Source of the DNA: a virus | Reading direction: 5' to 3' (one strand) | DNA length: 64,000 bases | IMG/VR virus record: IMGVR_UViG_3300027747_002198 | Coordinates: 64,001 to 128,000 of that record | Shown: piece after piece, positions 20,436 through 27,950 of the stretch | Numbering within the stretch: position 1 is the first letter of the stretch | How the letters are laid out: each line of letters opens with the position of its first letter | The notes under the pieces: model-generated | What the model was told of the DNA's origin: nothing | What the model saw: only the letters and a program-made list of their open reading frames with translations | Database searches by the model: none | Position numbers and translations under genes: made by a program

Positions 20436-21002
20436 ATGTTTATAAAATTAAAAAACAAATTTATCGTTGATGGAAATAAATTCAATACAGGTAATGAAAT
20501 AGTTAATTATGGTTATAATGTTGATGGCCAATTTAAAGGAATTTCATATTTTAAAGTTGAGGGAAATATCTTTCAGGAAGTTTTAAAAGTTGTTCCGGAA
20601 AGGTATAGAAAAAATTTTGCAATTTCATATATGAAAATTAACGATTTGGTTCCTGCACACACAGATAATAATATATTAACTTCTATTAATTTTTATATTA
20701 AGCCTGGAAATTGTTTGACTCAATTTTATGAACTTAAATATAAAAATATAATTAAAAAAAAACATCCAAGTACAATTAAAAATTATATTGCCGGTGATGG
20801 ATTAACTTTTGATGAAAAAGATTTAAATCCAACGAAAAGTTTTATTGCTGAAGAAAATGACGTGTGGTTATTGGATGTTACAAAACCACATGCAGTTAAA
20901 CCTTTAGGAGAAAATACGGAAAGAATTGCAATTACAGTAGCTTCATTAATTTATGATTATAATTTGGTATGTAAAATGTTAAAAGAAACCGGTAATTTAT
21001 AA
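20436..21002 (+). CDS. cupin / 2OG-Fe(II) oxygenase-like protein
   Basis: PAHTD, WLLDVTKPHAV, ERIAI (HxD...H...R). Confidence 0.55.
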   Translation: MFIKLKNKFIVDGNKFNTGNEIVNYGYNVDGQFKGISYFKVEGNIFQEVLKVVPERYRKNFAISYMKINDLVPAHTDNNILTSINFYIKPGNCLTQFYELKYKNIIKKKHPSTIKNYIAGDGLTFDEKDLNPTKSFIAEENDVWLLDVTKPHAVKPLGENTERIAITVASLIYDYNLVCKMLKETGNL

Positions 21003-21628
21003 TGGAAAGTTTTAGAACTTTTACCATGTACGGAACATCAGAATCAAACACTTCAATTCAAGTTATGGTCGATGGTGTTATTTGTAAAAATGGAGTAGTT
21101 GAGGGTAATAACTTATTTTCTTTTCAGAATAATGTTAAAACCCACGGCAAAGTAGAAGTCAAAATACAGGTAAATAGTGGTAGTATAACACTTGGAAAAA
21201 CCATGGTAACATATCCTACATTATATGCAAAAAATGCATTTGCAAAATATAACAAAGGAACGATAACTTTTCCACAACCTTTTCAATCAAAATATGTATT
21301 TAATTCTGGTATATTAACTAAATTTGATCCGAATACAATTACCATAAAAGACCATTTTCAATTTGACCATGTAACATTTAATGGTCCTAATAATTTTTTA
21401 TTGTTATCAGAGAATGATTTGGAACCAAATTTAAATTTAGATAATTTTTATTTTTATAATAGTGATGATAGTAAAAATTTAAAAATTTTACCAATCTATA
21501 ATTATAAAAATGTTTATGTAAGTTGGTCATCAAAACAAGATAATTTAAAGTGTTTAGATATATTATTAACTGAAATATATGGAACATTTGGGCCGGTAGC
21601 TCAGTTGGTTAGAGCAGAGGACTCATAA
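21002..21628 (+). CDS. hypothetical protein, 3' end overlaps tRNA
   Basis: 208-aa very AT-rich ORF; stop lies in the tRNA anticodon loop. Confidence 0.55.
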   Translation: MESFRTFTMYGTSESNTSIQVMVDGVICKNGVVEGNNLFSFQNNVKTHGKVEVKIQVNSGSITLGKTMVTYPTLYAKNAFAKYNKGTITFPQPFQSKYVFNSGILTKFDPNTITIKDHFQFDHVTFNGPNNFLLLSENDLEPNLNLDNFYFYNSDDSKNLKILPIYNYKNVYVSWSSKQDNLKCLDILLTEIYGTFGPVAQLVRAEDS

Positions 21629-21666
21629 TCCTTTGGTCGAAGGTTCAAATCCTTCTCGGCCCACCA
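21590..21666 (+). tRNA. tRNA with CAT anticodon, probably Ile2 (lysidine-type)
   Basis: Full cloverleaf GGGCCGG...TCGGCCC-ACCA, loop CTCATAA; body resembles bacterial tRNA-Ile2 rather than Met. Confidence 0.85.
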
Positions 21667-21690
21667 TAAATAATACAAAAAAGGAAAAAG

Positions 21691-22053
21691 ATGGAACATT
21701 GGGGAAAACACCTAATTATCGATGCCAAAGGCTGCGATATACAAAGAGCAAATGATCCAGAATATATCAAACATTTTACCAAAGAATTGGTAAGATTGAT
21801 TGAGATGGTTCCTTTTGGTGAACCACAAGTTGTCCATTTTGCGGATGGTGGCGACAAATCTGGATGGACTATGATACAGTTGATTGAAACATCAAACGTC
21901 ATAGGGCACTTCCTAGACCATAATGGAGACCTTTACCTTGATGTATTCAGTTGTAAAGATTTTTCGGAGCATACGGTTATAGGCGCTTTAAAGATGTTCT
22001 TTTCACCAGGTGAAATTAAACATCAAGTCATTTGGAGAGATGCTCGTAACTAA
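21691..22053 (+). CDS. speD: S-adenosylmethionine decarboxylase proenzyme
   Basis: WGKHLIID, LIETSN (self-cleavage Ser), YLDVFSCK. Confidence 0.8.
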   Translation: MEHWGKHLIIDAKGCDIQRANDPEYIKHFTKELVRLIEMVPFGEPQVVHFADGGDKSGWTMIQLIETSNVIGHFLDHNGDLYLDVFSCKDFSEHTVIGALKMFFSPGEIKHQVIWRDARN

Positions 22054-22122
22054 ATAAGTATGTGTGAGTAGTAACGGATTAATGCAATTATTGGGTCAAC
22101 TTATTAGAAGGAGAGACCTAAA

Positions 22123-22635
22123 ATGCAGTTAAGTATAGTCGGTTGTCCCGATAAAAAACATTTCCGGCCGTATGTTAAAAGAGCGGCGCTATTTTACGCA
22201 CAAGAACTTATAAAACCTAAGATGTTGGAAAACATCTTTTTAAGAATTAAATTCAATAGTAAAATGAATGTATACGGATATGCTGAGATTTTAGAGTATA
22301 ATGAAAGCCGTAAAGCAAGAGAATTTCAAATAGAATTAAATCCAAACATTGGTGCGGCAGAAATATTAAAGTGTTTGGCACATGAAATGACCCATATTAA
22401 ACAATACGCTTACAATGAAACCAACGAAACCTTAACTCGTTGGAAAGGTATAAGAGTTGATTCTGATGTGGTAGATTATTGGGTTCAACCATGGGAAATA
22501 GAAGCATTTGGTAGAGAAGTCGGTCTATTTGCCAAGTTTGCAATTAAAGAAAAACTTTGGGATGTATTTTATGGAGTACAAAATCCTGATGGAGCAATAG
22601 AAATTGAAGAATTAGGTTGGAAAGAGCCTATATAA
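22123..22635 (+). CDS. zinc metallopeptidase-like protein
   Basis: LAHEMTHIKQY (HExxH) and PWEIEA. Confidence 0.7.
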   Translation: MQLSIVGCPDKKHFRPYVKRAALFYAQELIKPKMLENIFLRIKFNSKMNVYGYAEILEYNESRKAREFQIELNPNIGAAEILKCLAHEMTHIKQYAYNETNETLTRWKGIRVDSDVVDYWVQPWEIEAFGREVGLFAKFAIKEKLWDVFYGVQNPDGAIEIEELGWKEPI

Positions 22636-22642
22636 AAGAACA

Positions 22643-22717
22643 ATGAAAAATTTACACATAACAACTTCCAATTATTATAATACATCAGGAACATGGTGTA
22701 GTGGGGTTCGTTTGTAA
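22643..22717 (+). CDS. putative attenuator leader peptide MKNLHITTSNYYNTSGTWCSGVRL
   Basis: 24-codon ORF with one TGG codon; its 3' end forms the 5' arm of an antiterminator. Confidence 0.6.
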   Translation: MKNLHITTSNYYNTSGTWCSGVRL

Positions 22718-22777
22718 ATTTTTAAGTAACACAGATTTATACGAACCCAAGTCTAAACAACTTGGGTTTTTTGTTTT
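22704..22777 (+). promoter_or_regulatory. attenuator: antiterminator (22704-22748) overlapping intrinsic terminator (22744-22777)
   Basis: GGGTTCGT pairs with ACGAACCC; AACCCAAGT-CTAAACA-ACTTGGGTT-TTTTGTTTT shares AACCC. Confidence 0.75.
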
Positions 22778-22781
22778 CCGT

Positions 22782-22855
22782 GGCCTGCTGGTGTAATGGT
22801 AGCACAAGGCACTCCAAACGCCTTGGTCGGGGTTCGATTCCCTGGTGGGACGCCA
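22782..22855 (+). tRNA. trnW: tRNA-Trp(CCA)
   Basis: Cloverleaf, anticodon loop CTCCAAA, TTCGATT T-loop, encoded CCA; weak acceptor stem. Confidence 0.85.
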
Positions 22856-22858
22856 ATG

Positions 22859-22913
22859 ATTGTAAAGTTAAAAAACTTTATTGTAAAGTTATTCGTAGTT
22901 GATTGTAAAGTTA
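22859..22913 (+). repeat. three direct repeats ATTGTAAAGTTA
   Basis: Copies at 22859, 22880 and 22902 (21-22 bp period). Confidence 0.85.
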
Positions 22914-22949
22914 AGGTGTTGTGTGGAAACAACAGTATCAAAATGTTAC

Positions 22950-22978
22950 TTGACAGAAAATAGTTTGTCTAGTATAAT
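22950..22978 (+). promoter_or_regulatory. consensus sigma70 promoter
   Basis: TTGACA-17-TATAAT upstream of tRNA-Tyr. Confidence 0.9.
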
Positions 22979-22990
22979 AGTAGTTCAATT

Positions 22991-23074
22991 GGGGTAGAAG
23001 AATCAACGGTGATTCAGCGGCCTGTAAAGCCGCCGCCTCTGGCATGCTTGGTTCGATCCCAAGATACCCCACCA
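22991..23074 (+). tRNA. trnY: tRNA-Tyr(GTA)
   Basis: GCGGC-CTGTAAA-GCCGC anticodon arm, long variable arm, ACCA end. Confidence 0.88.
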
Positions 23075-23181
23075 GATTGTTGTATCAAGTGTAATGATTG
23101 GGTTGAGGACTTCTCGGCCGACAACAACGGAGGTGGCCGTCCCGTTTACATAACGAGCCCCATATTTTTAAGGAGAGTATT

Positions 23182-23400
23182 ATGAAAAAGAAAAATACTC
23201 CCCAACCTCGGAACTATCTTGTCAAATTGGCATTGTTTCGAAAAGCAGGGAGCCATCGTAAGAGTAACAAAGCAGTAAGGCGTAGTGAGAAGTCAAAAAG
23301 AAGTTATTATAGTGAAGTATACTGCCACTTAATACATATATGTGGAGTCCGGCCGGCGCACCTTCCACGGGTCAGCAATAGGTTCGAAACTATTGTGTAG
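23182..23400 (+). CDS. small basic protein, possibly ArfA-like
   Basis: Strong AAGGAG RBS; PRNYLVKLALFRKAGSHRKSNK core; 3' half overlaps a long RNA stem. Confidence 0.55.
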   Translation: MKKKNTPQPRNYLVKLALFRKAGSHRKSNKAVRRSEKSKRSYYSEVYCHLIHICGVRPAHLPRVSNRFETIV

Positions 23401-23419
23401 TGTGCTTCACTATAATAAT
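23303..23419 (+). ncRNA. structured RNA closed by a 23-bp stem
   Basis: 23303-23325 pairs with 23397-23419 (four G-U pairs); internal GCAATAG-GTTCGAAA-CTATTGT hairpin. Confidence 0.6.
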
Positions 23420-23433
23420 TTTGGTCCGCCAAT

Positions 23434-23508
23434 GCCCTTTTAGCACAGCGGTAGTGCAGTGGTTTTGTAAACCAAAGGTCGGGAGTTCAAATCTCTCAGA
23501 GGGCACCA
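23434..23508 (+). tRNA. trnT: tRNA-Thr(TGT)
   Basis: GCCCTTT...AGAGGGC-ACCA, loop TTTGTAA. Confidence 0.92.
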
Positions 23509-23527
23509 AGTATACCGCACAATGTTC

Positions 23528-23556
23528 TTGACAATGTGTATAAGTAATGTTATAGT
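23528..23556 (+). promoter_or_regulatory. sigma70-type promoter
   Basis: TTGACA-17-TATAGT with extended -10 TG. Confidence 0.75.
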
Positions 23557-23565
23557 ATTGAATAT

Positions 23566-23632
23566 GCGGTGTGTAATAGTACGATGTGAGATACCCTCTT
23601 ATATTATCTGAGCAAAGCAGACCACCGCTCCA
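23566..23632 (+). ncRNA. non-canonical tRNA-Gly-like RNA
   Basis: GCGGTG/CACCGC acceptor with TCCA end, but minimal D arm, long anticodon stem and no TTC T-loop. Confidence 0.6.
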
Positions 23633-23652
23633 AATTTTATTAGGGATTTATA

Positions 23653-23814
23653 ATGGCAACTAAAGATAAAACAAAAAAATCTTCAATGACAACCAAAACA
23701 GGTAAGCCTCGTTTAGGTCCTTTAAATGTTGAACAGTTAACTAAATTATTAGATGGTGCTCGTAAGAAACACAAACCAAAAATTTTGAAAGCAATTGCTC
23801 GAAAAGCAGCATGA
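23653..23814 (+). CDS. small basic protein (53 aa)
   Basis: MATKDKTKK...GKPRLGPLNVEQLTKLL; AGGG RBS. Confidence 0.55.
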   Translation: MATKDKTKKSSMTTKTGKPRLGPLNVEQLTKLLDGARKKHKPKILKAIARKAA

Positions 23815-23912
23815 GTTCAAATACAAATCCTTCTTGGGGCAAAACACTAACCAAGAAAGAATTGTTGGATATGCTTGACAGAATTTATGCCAAGCAAAAA
23901 AAAGAAAAGTAA
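23811..23912 (+). CDS. 33-aa hypothetical protein
   Basis: ATGA overlap with previous stop. Confidence 0.4.
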   Translation: MSSNTNPSWGKTLTKKELLDMLDRIYAKQKKEK

Positions 23913-23916
23913 CCTT

Positions 23917-23990
23917 GCGGGATTAGTTTAATGGTAAAACTACAGATTTCCAATCTGTTGTCATCGGTTCGATTCCGTTATCCCGCTCCA
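23917..23990 (+). tRNA. trnG: tRNA-Gly(TCC)
   Basis: GCGGGAT...ATCCCGC-TCCA, loop TTTCCAA. Confidence 0.93.
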
Positions 23991-23991
23991 T

Positions 23992-24067
23992 TCCTCGATA
24001 GCTCAGTCGGTAGAGCAGCAGACTGTTAATCTGTTGGTCCGTGGTTCAAGTCCACGTTGGGGAGCCA
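23992..24067 (+). tRNA. trnN: tRNA-Asn(GTT)
   Basis: TCCTCGA...TGGGGA-GCCA, loop CTGTTAA. Confidence 0.93.
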
Positions 24068-24267
24068 TTGTTGAGAATGTGTGAAAAAGAGTAAGCAATC
24101 CTAACTGTTAAGGAATATCATCACCCTTGAGGTGTCCATCCGAGATCCGGAGATGACTGCTGGCTGAAGCAGTATGAAAGGTGTAATCAAGGGGAGGTCA
24201 GAGCATAGGACGGGTTAAAGACCGCACCGGCGAGAGCCTTTTAAACATAAAACAGTATTCTCAACAA
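24068..24267 (+). ncRNA. unidentified ~200-nt structured RNA
   Basis: Ends pair (TTGTTGAGAATG/TATTCTCAACAA); internal CCCTTGA/TCAAGGG and ACTGC/GCAGT stems; GC-rich; no long ORF. Confidence 0.55.
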
Positions 24268-24299
24268 TGACTATATACTTTATTACATAAGGAATTGAT

Positions 24300-24554
24300 A
24301 TGATAATCGTAGATGAAATGACACCAACAAAAGATAACATCATTGTGGATCGTATTGCTGGTGAAAAAGAAACAGAATCAGGAATTATTTTAAAATCATC
24401 CGATGGACCAGACCGTGCAAAAGTGATTGCTATTGGTCCTAAAGTTGATGAAGTTGAAGTTGGTGATGAAGTATTACTTAACTGGAATGGTGCAGTGAAA
24501 ATTGCTAATGAACGTTATGTAATCAAAATTGAACACGTTGTTTTAATTTATTAA
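24300..24554 (+). CDS. groES: co-chaperonin GroES-like (gp31 analogue)
   Basis: PTKDNIIV, ETESGIIL mobile loop, AIGPKVDEVEVGDEVL. Confidence 0.85.
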   Translation: MIIVDEMTPTKDNIIVDRIAGEKETESGIILKSSDGPDRAKVIAIGPKVDEVEVGDEVLLNWNGAVKIANERYVIKIEHVVLIY

Positions 24555-24559
24555 TCTTG

Positions 24560-24634
24560 CGCGGAGTAGTTCAGAGGTAGAACGCTGGACTCATAATCCA
24601 GAGGCCGTTGGTTCGATTCCATCCTCCGCAACCA
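24560..24634 (+). tRNA. tRNA-Met(CAT), initiator-like
   Basis: CGCGGAG...CTCCGCA-ACCA with C1:A72 mismatch, loop CTCATAA. Confidence 0.88.
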
Positions 24635-24647
24635 ACAAGGAGATAAT

Positions 24648-24791
24648 ATGAGTGTGGTTAAATCAAATACTAAAAAAGTTCCTAATGTTCCTAATATTAA
24701 AAATATAGGACCAAAACCAAACATCAAACCTAAAGGTCCTGTTGCGGCCAAATCTTCAGCACCAATGCGTAAAAGTGGGAGAGGACGATGA
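24648..24791 (+). CDS. small Lys/Pro-rich protein ending RKSGRGR
   Basis: AAGGAG RBS, 47 aa. Confidence 0.6.
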   Translation: MSVVKSNTKKVPNVPNIKNIGPKPNIKPKGPVAAKSSAPMRKSGRGR

Positions 24792-24934
24792 TACAATCAA
24801 AAGGTGTTGATGAGTCAGATCCAGTAAAGAAACAAGATTCTGAAAATGAAGATGCCGAATTCAAACGAATTGAAGATGAGCAATATCGCCAAAAACAATT
24901 AGAAAAAGTTAGAAACTTGACACGTTGGCCATAA
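24788..24934 (+). CDS. 48-aa hypothetical protein
   Basis: ATGA overlap, GAGG RBS. Confidence 0.5.
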   Translation: MIQSKGVDESDPVKKQDSENEDAEFKRIEDEQYRQKQLEKVRNLTRWP

Positions 24935-25007
24935 TGGCATAAGGCGTATAATACGCCATCAGCATTAGATACACATTATAATCTACCATGTAATCTATGG
25001 GTGTCAT
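24909..25007 (-). CDS. 32-aa hydrophobic peptide
   Basis: Minus strand TAAATA late-like element, GAAAGG RBS, MTPIDYMVDYNVYLMLMAYYTPYAIMANVSSF. Confidence 0.4.
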   Translation of the reverse strand: MTPIDYMVDYNVYLMLMAYYTPYAIMANVSSF

Positions 25008-25099
25008 AATTGAACCTTTCTTTTGGTATATAAGTATTTATCTCTTTACAACCTTTTCTGGTTGTTATATAATAATGAAATATTTTGAAAGGAAATAAC

Positions 25100-25414
25100 A
25101 TGGCAGATATTAAATTATTTAAACTATTCACCAATGAAGAAATCTTGGCTGAAATTGAATCTGAATCTGAAACCGAATATGTATTATCTAATACTGTAGG
25201 CGTTTCAGTTGTTCGTCAAAAAGATGGAACACCAGGTGTTGGTTTTATTCCATTCCCTCTACACGCAGAACAAAAAACAAATTCCACATTTGTATTGAAT
25301 AAGAAAAGTGTATCTTATTCTTATGTTCCTGCTCAAGATTTTATTGATAATTATAATTCTATTTTTGGATCAGGCATCGTCCTTCCACCAGCAAAAACTT
25401 TAATCAAAGGTTAA
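25100..25414 (+). CDS. conserved hypothetical protein preceding DNA polymerase
   Basis: IKLFKLFTNEEILAE, YNSIFGSGIVLP. Confidence 0.7.
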   Translation: MADIKLFKLFTNEEILAEIESESETEYVLSNTVGVSVVRQKDGTPGVGFIPFPLHAEQKTNSTFVLNKKSVSYSYVPAQDFIDNYNSIFGSGIVLPPAKTLIKG

Positions 25415-25415
25415 A

Positions 25416-27950
25416 TTGAGTAACTTCTACACTAATGTACAATGCTTTGGTAGTAATATTCTCTATCGAGGCATTAAAGATGGTAAAAGAATAAAAGCAA
25501 GGATCGAGTATTCTCCATCTTTGTTTTTGCCGTCTAAAAGAATCACCAACTTCACCTCACTCGAAGGTGATTATCTCGACCAAAAAATCTTTGGTACCAT
25601 CCGTGAAGCGAGAGATTACATCAAGCAATTTGAAGGTGTTTCTGGTGGTGTGAAGATTTATGGTCAAACCCGTTTTGAGTATGCGTATATTGCAGACCAA
25701 CACACAGGTATGGTTGATTACGACCAAGATAAAGTTCTTATTGCTGTAGTCGATATTGAGGTCGGTTCTGAAAATGGATTCCCTGATCCATACAAAGCAA
25801 ACGAACCAATCACAGCTATTTGTATCAAATATGTCAATGGTCCAACTTATGTGTTTGCTTGTGGTGATTATGTTAAACAAGGTGATGAGAATTATGTGAA
25901 ATGTAAAGACGAATATTCTATTTGCAAACAATTTATGGCTTTGTGGACAAATAAATGTCCTGATATTCTAACTGGTTGGAATACTAAGTTTTTTGATGAG
26001 CCTTATTTGATTAATCGTTTCCGTAAAATTCTTGGTGAAGATGAAACCAAGAAACTTTCTCCATGGAATTATATTGGCGAGCGTAAAACAACAATCAATG
26101 GACGCCAGTTAATTGCCTATAACCTGATGGGTGTTGAATCACTCGATTATATTGAATTGTATAAGTGGTATGCTCCTGGCGGAAAGTCACAAGAATCCTA
26201 TCGTTTAGATGCCATTGCTCAAGTCGAATTGGGTGAAGGCAAAATCTCTTATGATGAATATGATAACTTGCACTCATTGTATCGATTAAACTTCCAAAAA
26301 TTTATTGAGTATAATATCAAAGACGTTGAACTCATTATTAAACTTGAAGAAAAGTTAAAGTTACTCGAATTGGGAATAACTTTGGCCTATGATACCAAAA
26401 CAAACTTTGAAGATATCTTTGCTCAAACTCGTATGTGGGATTCTCTAACATATTCTTATCTGTTTGAAAAGAATATTATTGTTCCTCCTAGAATTACCAA
26501 AGAAAAAGATGGTATGTTTGAAGGTGCTTATGTTAAAGTACCACAAGTTGGTTTACATAATTGGGTTGCATCGTTTGACCTGAATAGTTTGTATCCGCAT
26601 TTGATGATGCAATACAATATTTCTCCTGAAACTTTGATTGAGCCTGAAAATTATTCAGATGAAATGCGTGAGATTTTATCTCAAGGTGTTTCTGTTGATA
26701 AGATGCTGTACAAAAATGTGGATACTTCCAAACTTAAAGGTGCAACTCTAACCCCTAATGGACAATTCTTCCGTACCGATATTCAAGGTTTCTTGCCCAA
26801 AATGATGGAAGAAATGTATACTGATAGAAAGAAGTTTAAGAAGTTAATGTTGCAGGCAAAACAGGAATATGAAAATGAAACTGATGAATCTAAAAAATAT
26901 GAAATTGAAAAGCGAATTGCTAAGTACAACAATATTCAGTTGGCCAAAAAAGTGTCCCTTAATAGTGCTTATGGTGCTTTGGGCTCTCAGTACTTCCGTT
27001 TTTATGATTTGCGTATGGCACTTGGTGTTACTACTGCTGGCCAACTTTCCATCAGGTGGATTGAAAATAAACTTAACGATTGGATGAACAATCTATTAAA
27101 AAGTGAGAAAGATTATGTTATTGCGTCCGATACTGATTCGATTTACCTCAACCTTGGTCCATTGGTTAATAGCATTGTTAAATCAAAGATTGAAACTCCT
27201 AAAGTTATCTCCATCATGGACCGTATTTGTGAGGATAAGATTCAACCTTATATTGACAAGAGTTATCAGGAGTTGGCAGAGTATGTGTGTGCATATTCTC
27301 AAAAGATGGAAATGAAACGTGAGGGTTTGTCCGATAAAGGAATCTGGACCGCCAAGAAGCGATATATTCTAAATGTTTATAACAATGAAGGTGTTCAATA
27401 TAACGAACCACAACTCAAGGTGATGGGTTTGGAGATGATTAAATCGTCTACACCATCGGTTGTTCGTGATAAGATGAAATCGCTTATTAAGATTCTTGTA
27501 TCTGGCACAGAAGATGATGTACAATCATTTATTGCAGAGTTTAGAGAACAATTTAAACATCTACCTGTAGAGGAGATATCTTTTCCTCGTGGTCTGAATG
27601 GGCTAAATACCTATTCACATGCGGTGACCTTATACACTAAAGGTACACCAATCCATGTAAAAGGTGCAATTCTATATAATCATAAATTGAAACAAATGGA
27701 ACTCACCAAAAAGTACCCACTCATTCAAGAAGGCGAGAAAGTTAAGTTTACTTATCTAAAAATGCCAAACACATTTAAAGATAGTGTTGTTTCATTTCCT
27801 AGTAGATTACCTGTCGAATTTGATTTACAAAAGTTTATTGATTATGATACACAATTCGAAAAAACATTCTTGGAACCGATCAAAGTAATTCTTGATTGTA
27901 TGGGATGGAAAACAGAAAAATGTAGTTCAATAGAGGACTTTTTCTCATGA
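25416..27950 (+). CDS. gp43: family B DNA polymerase
   Basis: DIEV exonuclease, SFDLNSLYP, KVSLNSAYG, SDTDS motifs; TTG start. Confidence 0.98.
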   Translation: MSNFYTNVQCFGSNILYRGIKDGKRIKARIEYSPSLFLPSKRITNFTSLEGDYLDQKIFGTIREARDYIKQFEGVSGGVKIYGQTRFEYAYIADQHTGMVDYDQDKVLIAVVDIEVGSENGFPDPYKANEPITAICIKYVNGPTYVFACGDYVKQGDENYVKCKDEYSICKQFMALWTNKCPDILTGWNTKFFDEPYLINRFRKILGEDETKKLSPWNYIGERKTTINGRQLIAYNLMGVESLDYIELYKWYAPGGKSQESYRLDAIAQVELGEGKISYDEYDNLHSLYRLNFQKFIEYNIKDVELIIKLEEKLKLLELGITLAYDTKTNFEDIFAQTRMWDSLTYSYLFEKNIIVPPRITKEKDGMFEGAYVKVPQVGLHNWVASFDLNSLYPHLMMQYNISPETLIEPENYSDEMREILSQGVSVDKMLYKNVDTSKLKGATLTPNGQFFRTDIQGFLPKMMEEMYTDRKKFKKLMLQAKQEYENETDESKKYEIEKRIAKYNNIQLAKKVSLNSAYGALGSQYFRFYDLRMALGVTTAGQLSIRWIENKLNDWMNNLLKSEKDYVIASDTDSIYLNLGPLVNSIVKSKIETPKVISIMDRICEDKIQPYIDKSYQELAEYVCAYSQKMEMKREGLSDKGIWTAKKRYILNVYNNEGVQYNEPQLKVMGLEMIKSSTPSVVRDKMKSLIKILVSGTEDDVQSFIAEFREQFKHLPVEEISFPRGLNGLNTYSHAVTLYTKGTPIHVKGAILYNHKLKQMELTKKYPLIQEGEKVKFTYLKMPNTFKDSVVSFPSRLPVEFDLQKFIDYDTQFEKTFLEPIKVILDCMGWKTEKCSSIEDFFS

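What the first reader, a model, noticed from the sequence alone, without database searches (positions are those of the whole stretch)
23182..23419. ArfA-like architecture: small basic ORF whose stop codon is buried in a 23-bp RNA stem
Seen: a 72-aa ORF with a strong RBS and a basic N-terminal core (LALFRKAGSHRKSNK). From codon ~41 it runs into a continuous 23-bp stem (23303-23325 with 23397-23419; four G-U pairs imply RNA-level pairing on the + strand). The TAG lies in the 3' arm and the C-terminal residues look unconstrained. Established: E. coli arfA (72 aa, with PLFR...KGSY) is cut by RNase III at a 3' hairpin to give a nonstop mRNA, so ArfA accumulates only when tmRNA is overloaded. Inference: a phage ribosome-rescue factor under nonstop control, located in a tRNA island. 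Alternatively the stem simply closes an independent ncRNA.
Basis: partly seen in the sequence, partly recalled or inferred. Interest (0 to 1): 0.72.

Follow-up and report, generated by a model that had tools for sequence, protein, structure and literature searches.

The report
Phage mini-gene lacking a usable stop
A very common but unnamed 40-residue basic phage protein is always encoded so that its reading frame runs, without a stop codon, straight into a processed RNA (a long stem here, a tRNA-Lys gene in relatives). This is the design bacteria use for the back-up ribosome-rescue factors ArfA and BrfA, although the protein is not detectably related to them.

Summary
ORF 23182-23400 has a strong SD. 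Its last 33 codons lie in a 26-bp stem (23300-23325/23397-23422, five G·U), and the TAG sits in the 3' arm.

Only the first 40 codons are a conserved, truly coding protein: 586 clusters at 50% identity, no Pfam, NCBIfam or PHROG family. In about 80 distinct phage loci this core is followed at once, with no in-frame stop, by one of two things:
- a perfect 15-26 bp stem of several unrelated sequences;
- a tRNA-Lys(UUU) gene, with the first stop inside or beyond the tRNA, in all three frames.

Maturing that tRNA must therefore leave a stop-less mRNA.

Genomes carrying the tRNA-Lys type mostly also encode a two-piece tmRNA; the window's phage does not.

ArfA or BrfA homology was tested and not found. 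Bacterial (35 of 301 Burkholderiales) and two GC-rich phage homologues have ordinary stops.

Best reading: a nonstop-mRNA, tmRNA-gated mini-protein, probably acting in ribosome rescue. That function is inferred, not shown.

First readers of this scan noted the same design on other genomes.

The parts
22950..22978 (+). Sigma-70-type promoter (TTGACA-17-TATAAT, 12/12) that starts the transcription unit tRNA-Tyr / leader / ORF / stem-ncRNA / tRNA-Thr
   Evidence: the next promoter-like site (11/12) is at 23528-23556, after tRNA-Thr, and no terminator-like site lies in between
22991..23074 (+). tRNA-Tyr(GTA); its 3' processing would set the 5' end of the ORF's mRNA
23075..23181 (+). Conserved structured leader (about 95% identical in 6 other loci) ending in the SD, GGAG at 23172-23175
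23182..23301 (+). Conserved coding core, 40 codons (MKKKNTPQPRNYLVKLALFRKAGSHRKSNKAVRRSEKSKR); predicted helix-loop-helix
   Evidence: alignment A1; synonymous-dominated variation; 1432 and 586 homologous clusters; AF2 model
23302..23400 (+). Unconstrained run-on tail of the ORF (codons 41-72 plus TAG 23398-23400), read from the stem and ncRNA sequence
   Evidence: tails differ in sequence, length and frame among close relatives
23300..23325 (+). 5' arm of the 26-bp stem (P1); candidate RNase III-type processing site
23326..23396 (+). Core of an independent conserved ncRNA module: invariant bulge ACUUAAUNCAUAWA, helix UGYGGAG/CUUCCRCG with a palindromic apical loop, and a variable hairpin P3
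   Evidence: no Rfam family
23397..23422 (+). 3' arm of the stem; contains the ORF's TAG
23434..23508 (+). tRNA-Thr(TGT), co-transcribed, 12 nt after the stem

Best explanation
The locus encodes a roughly 40-residue basic helix-loop-helix protein of a large, unnamed phage and Burkholderiales family. It is transcribed with the flanking tRNAs. In phage tRNA islands the gene is built so that the mature mRNA has no usable stop codon: the conserved core abuts a stable RNA that is cut out of the transcript. In most relatives that RNA is a tRNA-Lys(UUU) gene, cut at its 5' end by RNase P. In the window's subgroup it is a long perfect stem, probably cut by RNase III as in E. coli arfA; here the stem also closes a separate ncRNA module. 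Ribosomes would then run to the 3' end. While trans-translation has spare capacity the peptide is tagged and destroyed. When tmRNA is saturated the peptide accumulates. Its most likely job is to act on stalled ribosomes as an ArfA/BrfA/ArfT-like rescue helper. What is shown: the conserved coding core, the absence of a stop before the structure in every tRNA-island homologue, the stop lying inside the tRNA or stem, and frequent co-occurrence with phage tmRNA. What is inferred: the cleavages, tmRNA gating and rescue activity. My odds: about 0.75 that the stop-less design is real and selected, and about 0.35-0.4 that the function is ribosome rescue.
For: (1) The core is a real gene. In 69 distinct 39-nt segments, synonymous pairwise codon differences outnumber nonsynonymous ones 14247 to 5105. 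Invariant Ser and Arg residues switch between AGY/TCN and CGN/AGR codons. Third positions vary 0.45 against 0.18 and 0.11. An SD is present in all loci.
(2) In 70 distinct loci plus 9 more from a third phage group, no stop precedes the structure. Class I has a 15-26 bp perfect stem starting 32-47 nt after the Ser codon of SNKA, with the first stop 78-198 nt after it. Class II has tRNA-Lys(UUU) starting 30-44 nt after it, with the first stop 48-135 nt after it, often the tRNA's own nt 8-10. Entry occurs in all three frames, so the stops are accidental.
(3) Stems of at least three unrelated sequences, and a tRNA, occupy the same position.
(4) The cultured phage BUCT-ZZ01 and Burkholderia tRNA arrays show the tRNA-Lys form.
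(5) Permuted tmRNA is present in 7 of 12 class II records, including two near-complete genomes. Nine of 14 tmRNA-bearing ~100-kb records hold the ORF, including all three that are at least 90% complete.
(6) The protein is small and basic, with two predicted helices. arfA and brfA use the same stop-less regulation, and rescue factors of this size are known to be unrelated in sequence (PMC8012679, PMC6299226).
(7) There is one promoter for the whole unit and no terminator before tRNA-Thr.
Against: No detectable similarity to ArfA, ArfB or BrfA. Bacterial chromosomal homologues (35 of 301 Burkholderiales) and the copies in phages V45v66 and ACP17 end in ordinary stops, some followed by a separate terminator hairpin, and are not next to translation genes. 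So stop-less gating is not intrinsic to the family. In class I the stem usually abuts the next tRNA, so RNase P alone would leave the hairpin and its stop on the mRNA; stop loss there depends on an unproven cut inside the stem. The window's own phage and the other class I records held have no tmRNA. Co-occurrence with tmRNA may only reflect large tRNA islands. No expression data could be obtained.
Confidence: 0.5

Rival explanations
1. Ordinary small protein with a sloppy 3' end. It is translated from the unprocessed polycistronic precursor and terminated at whatever stop lies in the downstream stem or tRNA. The overlap is genome compaction and the variable tail is tolerated.
For: Every ORF does reach a stop within 16-66 codons of the SNKA serine codon. 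Relatives in bacteria and in two phages work with ordinary stops. In class I, RNase P cleavage alone would keep the stop on the mRNA.
Against: Not one of about 80 tRNA-island loci has a stop before the structure, although the structure has been exchanged several times and the entry frame varies. A functional tRNA-Lys must be cut at its 5' end, which removes the stop. ORFs that read into tRNA genes are otherwise very unusual.
Confidence: 0.2
2. The stem only closes an independent ncRNA, and its overlap with the ORF in this window is incidental.
For: The module inside the stem occurs in about 26 distinct loci without the ORF (30 in all), each closed by a different long stem and often beside a permuted tmRNA gene. 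Its helix covaries.
Against: Close relatives of the ORF have the same stem base with other inserts, or a plain 4-nt loop, and still lack a stop before it. The ORF-stem relation therefore does not depend on this module. The two readings are not exclusive.
Confidence: 0.1
3. A cis-acting or decoy element. Translating into the tRNA or stem tunes maturation of the downstream RNA. Alternatively, the abundant stop-less message is a sponge that occupies host tmRNA-SmpB or ClpXP. In either case the peptide itself is secondary.
For: The ORF is physically coupled to tRNA-Lys or to stems that abut tRNAs. It sits next to a strong promoter.
Against: Strong purifying selection on the amino-acid sequence, with 11 invariant residues across phage groups and free-standing bacterial homologues, points to a trans-acting protein.
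Confidence: 0.1
4. A tRNA-Lys-linked counter-defence peptide, for example an antagonist of anticodon nucleases that cut tRNA-Lys (PrrC, RloC or PARIS-type), delivered together with a replacement tRNA-Lys.
For: The fusion is exclusive to tRNA-Lys(UUU) in three very different phage groups. From my own knowledge, phage tRNA-Lys genes are known escape devices against such nucleases.
Against: The window's class I phages keep the ORF but have no tRNA-Lys. Bacterial chromosomal homologues are common. The overlap itself explains the linkage. No PADLOC or defence context was examined.
Confidence: 0.08

Closest known systems
E. coli ArfA (arfA/yhdL; Pfam PF03889)
   Same: A small basic protein; the annotated ORF is also 72 codons. 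The 3' part of the ORF is folded into a stem that holds or precedes the stop. ArfA is made from an mRNA truncated by RNase III or a terminator, and so accumulates only when tmRNA is limiting (PMC8012679). Its C-terminal residues are dispensable.
   Different: No sequence or profile similarity, and no KGKGS or KH motif. The conserved part is 40 aa rather than about 55. The gene is phage-encoded, inside a tRNA operon. In most relatives the cutting site is a tRNA gene (RNase P), not a hairpin.
B. subtilis BrfA (YqkK)
   Same: A 72-codon ORF whose stop lies behind a structure (a terminator), giving a stop-less mRNA gated by trans-translation. It is unrelated in sequence to ArfA, which shows that this design arose more than once (PMC8012679, PMC6881298).
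   Different: BrfA's 3' end is made by transcription termination, not RNA processing. No similarity was found in the PDB profile search, although a solved BrfA structure is reported (6SZS, per PMC8012679).
Francisella ArfT
   Same: 40 aa, basic, helical, with a C-terminal KKGGSTNKK stretch (PMC6299226) that loosely resembles KAGSHRKSNKA. It has an ordinary stop, like the bacterial branch of this family.
   Different: This is a resemblance taken from text only. No ArfT sequence was on hand to test, and ArfT is not stop-less regulated.
tRNA punctuation of mitochondrial mRNAs
   Same: Excision of a tRNA defines the 3' end of the upstream mRNA and can leave it without a complete stop codon (my own knowledge; see PMC9674279 for mitochondrial nonstop mRNAs).
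   Different: In mitochondria polyadenylation completes the stop. Here nothing is known that would restore one, and bacteria answer such ends with tmRNA.

Membership tests
ArfA (PF03889) | Sequence match to the ArfA profile | tested here: not met
   hmmscan of 16 members at E<=10 gave no hit. Six-frame search of the whole phage genome gave none, with the E. coli control positive. hhalign against an enterobacterial ArfA alignment gave probability 0.2%. BLASTP found nothing at E<=100.
ArfA (PF03889) | Conserved KGKGS / KH motif that lies in the mRNA channel | tested here: not met
   Alignment A1 has the invariant pattern AG-x-H-x-K-x-NKA-x-R, with no KGKGS.
ArfA (PF03889) | ORF's stop lies in or behind a 3' stem, so the working mRNA is stop-less | tested here: met
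   This holds at the level of sequence and comparison only. Cleavage itself was not testable.
ArfA (PF03889) | RF2-dependent release on nonstop ribosomes; synthetic lethality with ssrA | not testable with these tools
   Needs biochemistry and genetics.
BrfA | Sequence similarity to B. subtilis BrfA (solved structure 6SZS, per PMC8012679) | tested here: not met
   A profile search of all PDB chains at E<=10 returned only two chance hits, neither a rescue factor.
ArfT | Similarity to the Francisella 40-aa ArfT / KGG-repeat family | not tested
   No ArfT sequence was available from a tool. Only the motif quoted in PMC6299226 could be compared by eye. No Pfam family (including the KGG repeat) hit at E<=10.
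Programmed nonstop (tmRNA-gated) genes, as a functional class | No in-frame stop between the conserved coding part and an RNA 3'-end-forming site, conserved across relatives | tested here: met
   Met in 70 plus 9 distinct tRNA-island loci, with no exceptions among them. Exceptions occur only outside tRNA islands.
Programmed nonstop (tmRNA-gated) genes, as a functional class | Product tagged by tmRNA and raised when trans-translation fails | not testable with these tools
Any Rfam family (for the RNA inside the stem) | Covariance-model match | tested here: not met
   cmscan at E<=1 over 21000-25500 and at E<=0.1 over five related loci found only tRNAs and tmRNA.

The most novel reading that the evidence does not exclude
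This would be a fourth, sequence-unrelated family of alternative ribosome-rescue factors, after ArfA, BrfA and ArfT. It is carried by many freshwater and soil phages and by about one in eight sampled Burkholderiales. In phages its stop-less mRNA would be made by cutting out a tRNA (RNase P). That would be the first tRNA-punctuated programmed nonstop message in bacteria or phages. It would let the phage sense tmRNA saturation and keep ribosomes free during infection, often alongside a phage-encoded two-piece tmRNA.
Probability: 0.35. Interest if true: 0.9.

Novelty: new variant of a known kind. Interest (0 to 1): 0.78.

Why it matters
Alternative rescue factors are tiny, evolve independently and cannot be found by homology; reviews expect more to exist (PMC8012679). 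Here the regulatory signature, rather than the sequence, picks out a very large unannotated family: 586 clusters at 50% identity.

If the reading holds, three things follow:
- Phages would be shown to manage ribosome rescue themselves.
- It would give a new way of making a programmed nonstop mRNA, by tRNA excision.
- It would supply a candidate rescue factor for Burkholderiales, which mostly lack ArfA (3 of 301 sampled).

It would also offer a simple genomic rule for finding more tmRNA-gated genes: a conserved ORF core that abuts a tRNA or long stem without a stop. Even if the function proves different, the conserved stop-less ORF-tRNA-Lys fusion needs an explanation.

Tried and rejected
- Homology to known rescue factors: Pfam, NCBIfam, PHROGs, a PDB profile search (21), hhalign against ArfA (36), and BLASTP against ArfA and ArfB (57, 58) found nothing.
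- ESM Atlas pointed to DUF7230 at sub-threshold scores. The DUF7230 profile does not match the genome.
- P0209, a 720-aa hit of the profile search, is a eukaryote-like AT-hook repeat protein (KRKAGRPRKSNK), a chance motif match.
- tmRNA reading of the locus: ARAGORN and Rfam find no tmRNA in the window's genome. The ORF has its own SD and ATG, so it is not a tag frame.
- Terminator reading of the stem: no terminator-like site was called, and tRNA-Thr downstream has no promoter of its own.
- T-arm or tRNA-like reading of the hairpin with the GGTTCGAAAC loop: this hairpin is variable among copies of the module.
- Phyletic complementarity with ArfA in Burkholderiales is uninformative, because ArfA is nearly absent there (3 of 301).
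- Blastn of the region against cultured phages found no match.
- No complex prediction was run. The host is unknown, and binding of such factors to release factors occurs on the ribosome.

Full report
**1. What is in the window**

The window belongs to a complete 161.8-kb T4-like phage genome with terminal repeats. Its DNA polymerase is about 50% identical to those of cyanomyophages. The genome has seven tRNA genes and no tmRNA.

The ORF at 23182-23400 (72 codons, TAG) follows GGAG at 23172-23175. It lies between tRNA-Tyr (22991-23074) and tRNA-Thr (23434-23508).

A perfect sigma-70 consensus promoter (22950-22978) precedes tRNA-Tyr. The next promoter-like site comes only after tRNA-Thr (23528-23556), and no terminator lies between them. 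The unit is therefore promoter, tRNA-Tyr, 107-nt leader, ORF, stem with ncRNA, tRNA-Thr.

RNAfold confirms the long stem. It is 26 bp (23300-23325 with 23397-23422) with five G·U pairs, so the pairing is at the RNA level on this strand. The TAG lies in the 3' arm. Only one other inverted repeat of comparable quality exists in the 64 kb.

**2. The gene is real, but only its first 40 codons**

A scan of viral contigs gave 51 loci, and a profile scan gave 80 more.
- The first ~40 residues are conserved. In A1 the invariant residues are R10, N11, L16, A22, G23, H25, K27, N29, K30, A31 and R33.
- Everything after residue ~40 differs in sequence, length (42-190 aa in the databases) and even frame.
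- Variation in the core is what a protein-coding gene shows. Third positions vary most. Synonymous pairwise codon differences number 14247 against 5105 nonsynonymous. Invariant Ser and Arg residues are encoded by both codon families.
- The family is large: 1432 clusters at 90% identity and 586 representatives at 50% identity.
- It has no name in Pfam, NCBIfam or PHROGs.
- AlphaFold predicts helix 12-22, a GSHRKSN loop and helix 30-39, with mean pLDDT 73.

**3. The conserved design**

I classed 70 distinct loci and 9 more from a third phage group. In every one, the conserved core is followed at once by a very stable RNA, with no in-frame stop between them.

*Class I* (the window's close relatives):
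- A perfect 15-26 bp stem begins 32-47 nt after the Ser codon of SNKA.
- The first stop lies 78-198 nt after that codon, in the loop, in the 3' arm or beyond.
- At least three unrelated stem sequences occur. Loops range from 4 nt to ~100-nt inserts.
- In about 22 of 33 loci the stem's 3' end abuts the next tRNA within 0-2 nt. In the window the gap is 12 nt.

*Class II*:
- A tRNA-Lys(UUU) gene begins 30-44 nt after that codon.
- The first stop is inside or beyond the tRNA, often the tRNA's own nucleotides 8-10 (TAG or TAA).
- The ORF enters the tRNA in all three frames, so these stops are accidents of the tRNA sequence.
- Class II occurs in ~100-kb phages, ~160-kb T4-like phages, a 347-kb phage, the cultured Synechococcus phage BUCT-ZZ01, and Burkholderia tRNA arrays.

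Because a tRNA must be cut at its 5' end by RNase P to work, each matured tRNA-Lys necessarily leaves the upstream ORF without a stop. This step follows from the sequence plus established tRNA biology.

For class I the equivalent step is a cut inside the stem by RNase III, as in arfA. That is an inference. RNase P alone would leave the hairpin, with its stop, on the mRNA.

**4. Link to trans-translation**

- A permuted, betaproteobacterial-type tmRNA (RF04321 / RF01850) is encoded in 7 of 12 class II records. These include the complete 347-kb genome and a 93%-complete one.
- Of 14 ~100-kb records that I reached through the ncRNA module or tmRNA, 9 also hold a divergent member of the ORF family. 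All three that are at least 90% complete do so. The ORF lies mostly 4-9 kb from the tmRNA.
- Class I records, including the window's complete genome, have no tmRNA.

This association fits a role connected with ribosome rescue. It could also merely reflect large tRNA islands.

**5. What it is not**

No similarity to ArfA, ArfB or BrfA was found by any method:
- the Pfam ArfA model against 16 members and against the whole genome, with the E. coli control positive;
- a PDB profile search;
- hhalign against an ArfA alignment, probability 0.2%;
- BLASTP.

The likeness of KAGSHRKSNKA to ArfT's KKGGSTNKK (PMC6299226) is only a resemblance. The locus is therefore not a member of the ArfA family. The claim is that it is built like arfA and brfA. 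Those two are themselves unrelated to each other, and reviews expect further such factors (PMC8012679).

**6. A branch with ordinary stops**

- The profile finds chromosomal homologues in 35 of 301 sampled Burkholderiales genomes.
- These are 50-65 aa, with a slightly longer tail that mostly ends in acidic residues and an ordinary stop. In several a separate terminator hairpin follows the stop.
- Their neighbours are not translation genes: LemA in Thiomonas, dapA downstream in four loci, dapF upstream in three.
- Variovorax phage V45v66 has an ordinary stop and no tRNA nearby.
- The Acidovorax phage ACP17 copy also ends in an ordinary stop and lacks an obvious start codon.
- ArfA is almost absent from the sampled Burkholderiales (3 of 301), so a complementarity test says nothing.

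This branch shows that the protein can work with a normal stop, as ArfT does. It also shows that the stop-less form is a specialisation of the tRNA-island copies.

**7. The stem also closes an independent ncRNA**

- The sequence inside the window's stem (23326-23396) recurs in 36 viral loci, 30 of them distinct. Most lack the ORF. Each is closed by a different 11-27 bp stem.
- The alignment shows 31 invariant columns.
- The consensus is a three-way junction:
  - a variable P1;
  - GCC/GGU plus UGYGGAG/CUUCCRCG, with the Y-R pair covarying (22 C-G, 6 U-A);
  - an invariant 14-nt bulge ACUUAAUNCAUAWA;
  - an apical loop that nearly always holds a 4- to 6-nt palindrome (for example CCGG, CUCGAG, GCGCGC, CUGCAG), which suggests loop-loop dimerisation;
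  - a variable hairpin P3.
- It often lies directly beside a permuted tmRNA gene.
- It has no Rfam family.

Close relatives of the window's ORF keep the same stem base but carry other inserts or none.

**8. Mechanism proposed**

The tRNA operon transcript is processed. The ORF's mRNA ends at the tRNA-Lys 5' boundary, or within the stem. Ribosomes reach the end with an empty A site. tmRNA-SmpB tags the ~40-45 aa peptide for proteolysis. When rescue capacity is exhausted the untagged peptide accumulates and acts on stalled ribosomes. Exhaustion is plausible during infection, when host mRNA decays or tRNAs are attacked.

Rival readings, given with odds in the report sections:
- an ordinary gene with a sloppy end;
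- a cis-acting or decoy message;
- a tRNA-Lys-linked counter-defence peptide;
- a purely incidental overlap with the ncRNA.

**9. Prior knowledge**

Full-text searches found no description of a phage-encoded ArfA-like factor, or of stop-less ORFs fused to tRNA genes in bacteria or phages. Other first readers of this scan noted the same design (a 53-aa ORF, a 15-bp hairpin, abutting tRNA-Cys) on other genomes. I examined that locus type directly (L020-L037).

**10. Verdict**

- The architecture is strongly supported by comparison.
- ArfA homology is rejected.
- Function is inferred.
- Novelty: a new variant of a known kind, namely a tmRNA-gated stop-less mini-gene. Two elements are new: an unannotated protein family, and 3'-end formation by tRNA excision.

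Noticed in passing
window 23326-23396; also L042:3010-3105, L051:2975-3098, L231-L265: A conserved three-way-junction ncRNA with an invariant 14-nt bulge and a palindromic apical loop (possible kissing dimer). There are 30 distinct copies in viral contigs, often directly beside permuted tmRNA genes. No Rfam family matches it.
   Followed up: partly
window 23075-23169: The leader between tRNA-Tyr and the SD is about 95% identical in six other loci. It is predicted to fold as UUGUUGU/ACAACAA closing two hairpins, followed by an invariant GCCGTCCCGTTTACAYAACGAGC. In L007 a tRNA-Met is inserted between it and the SD. It may be a separate sRNA or a 5'-UTR element.
   Followed up: partly
window 23560-23652: After the promoter at 23528-23556 there is a block (ATGCGGTGTGTAATAGTACGATGTGAGATACCC...) that recurs nearly unchanged in L001, L002, L010 and L012. 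Here it precedes a 53-aa basic ORF (23653-23814); in L012 it precedes a tRNA-Gly.
   Followed up: no
window 24063-24078 / 24257-24272: Another long inverted repeat (16 nt, 94%) closes 178 nt right after tRNA-Asn. It may be a further stem-closed RNA module in the tRNA island.
   Followed up: no
L043-L050, L136:2697-2790, L184, L209, L290, L291 (just after tRNA-Lys): In class II loci the tRNA-Lys is followed by a long stem (for example CCATATAAAAACACATT...AATGTGTTTCTATATGG) that encloses 40-100 nt of varied content, some with T-loop-like hairpins. Stem-closed modules seem to be a general building block of these tRNA arrays.
   Followed up: no
L269, L271, L274, L276 (dapA downstream); L227, L229, L270 (dapF upstream): Two bacterial subgroups of the family sit next to lysine-biosynthesis genes, while the phage copies are fused to tRNA-Lys. 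This lysine coincidence is unexplained.
   Followed up: partly
L051:3064-3414 and 20 viral records (G320-G342): Phage-encoded two-piece, betaproteobacterial-type tmRNAs are frequent in these freshwater phage contigs. The tag in L051 is ANDSKYTLAA.
   Followed up: partly
window 21691-22053: An S-adenosylmethionine-decarboxylase-like ORF (Pfam AdoMet_dc, E 7.6e-18) lies inside the tRNA island.
   Followed up: no
L135:2498-2644 (Acidovorax phage ACP17): An unannotated homologue with no ATG/GTG/TTG start in frame near the conserved core. It overlaps the start of the next gene, and may be decaying or unusually initiated.
   Followed up: partly
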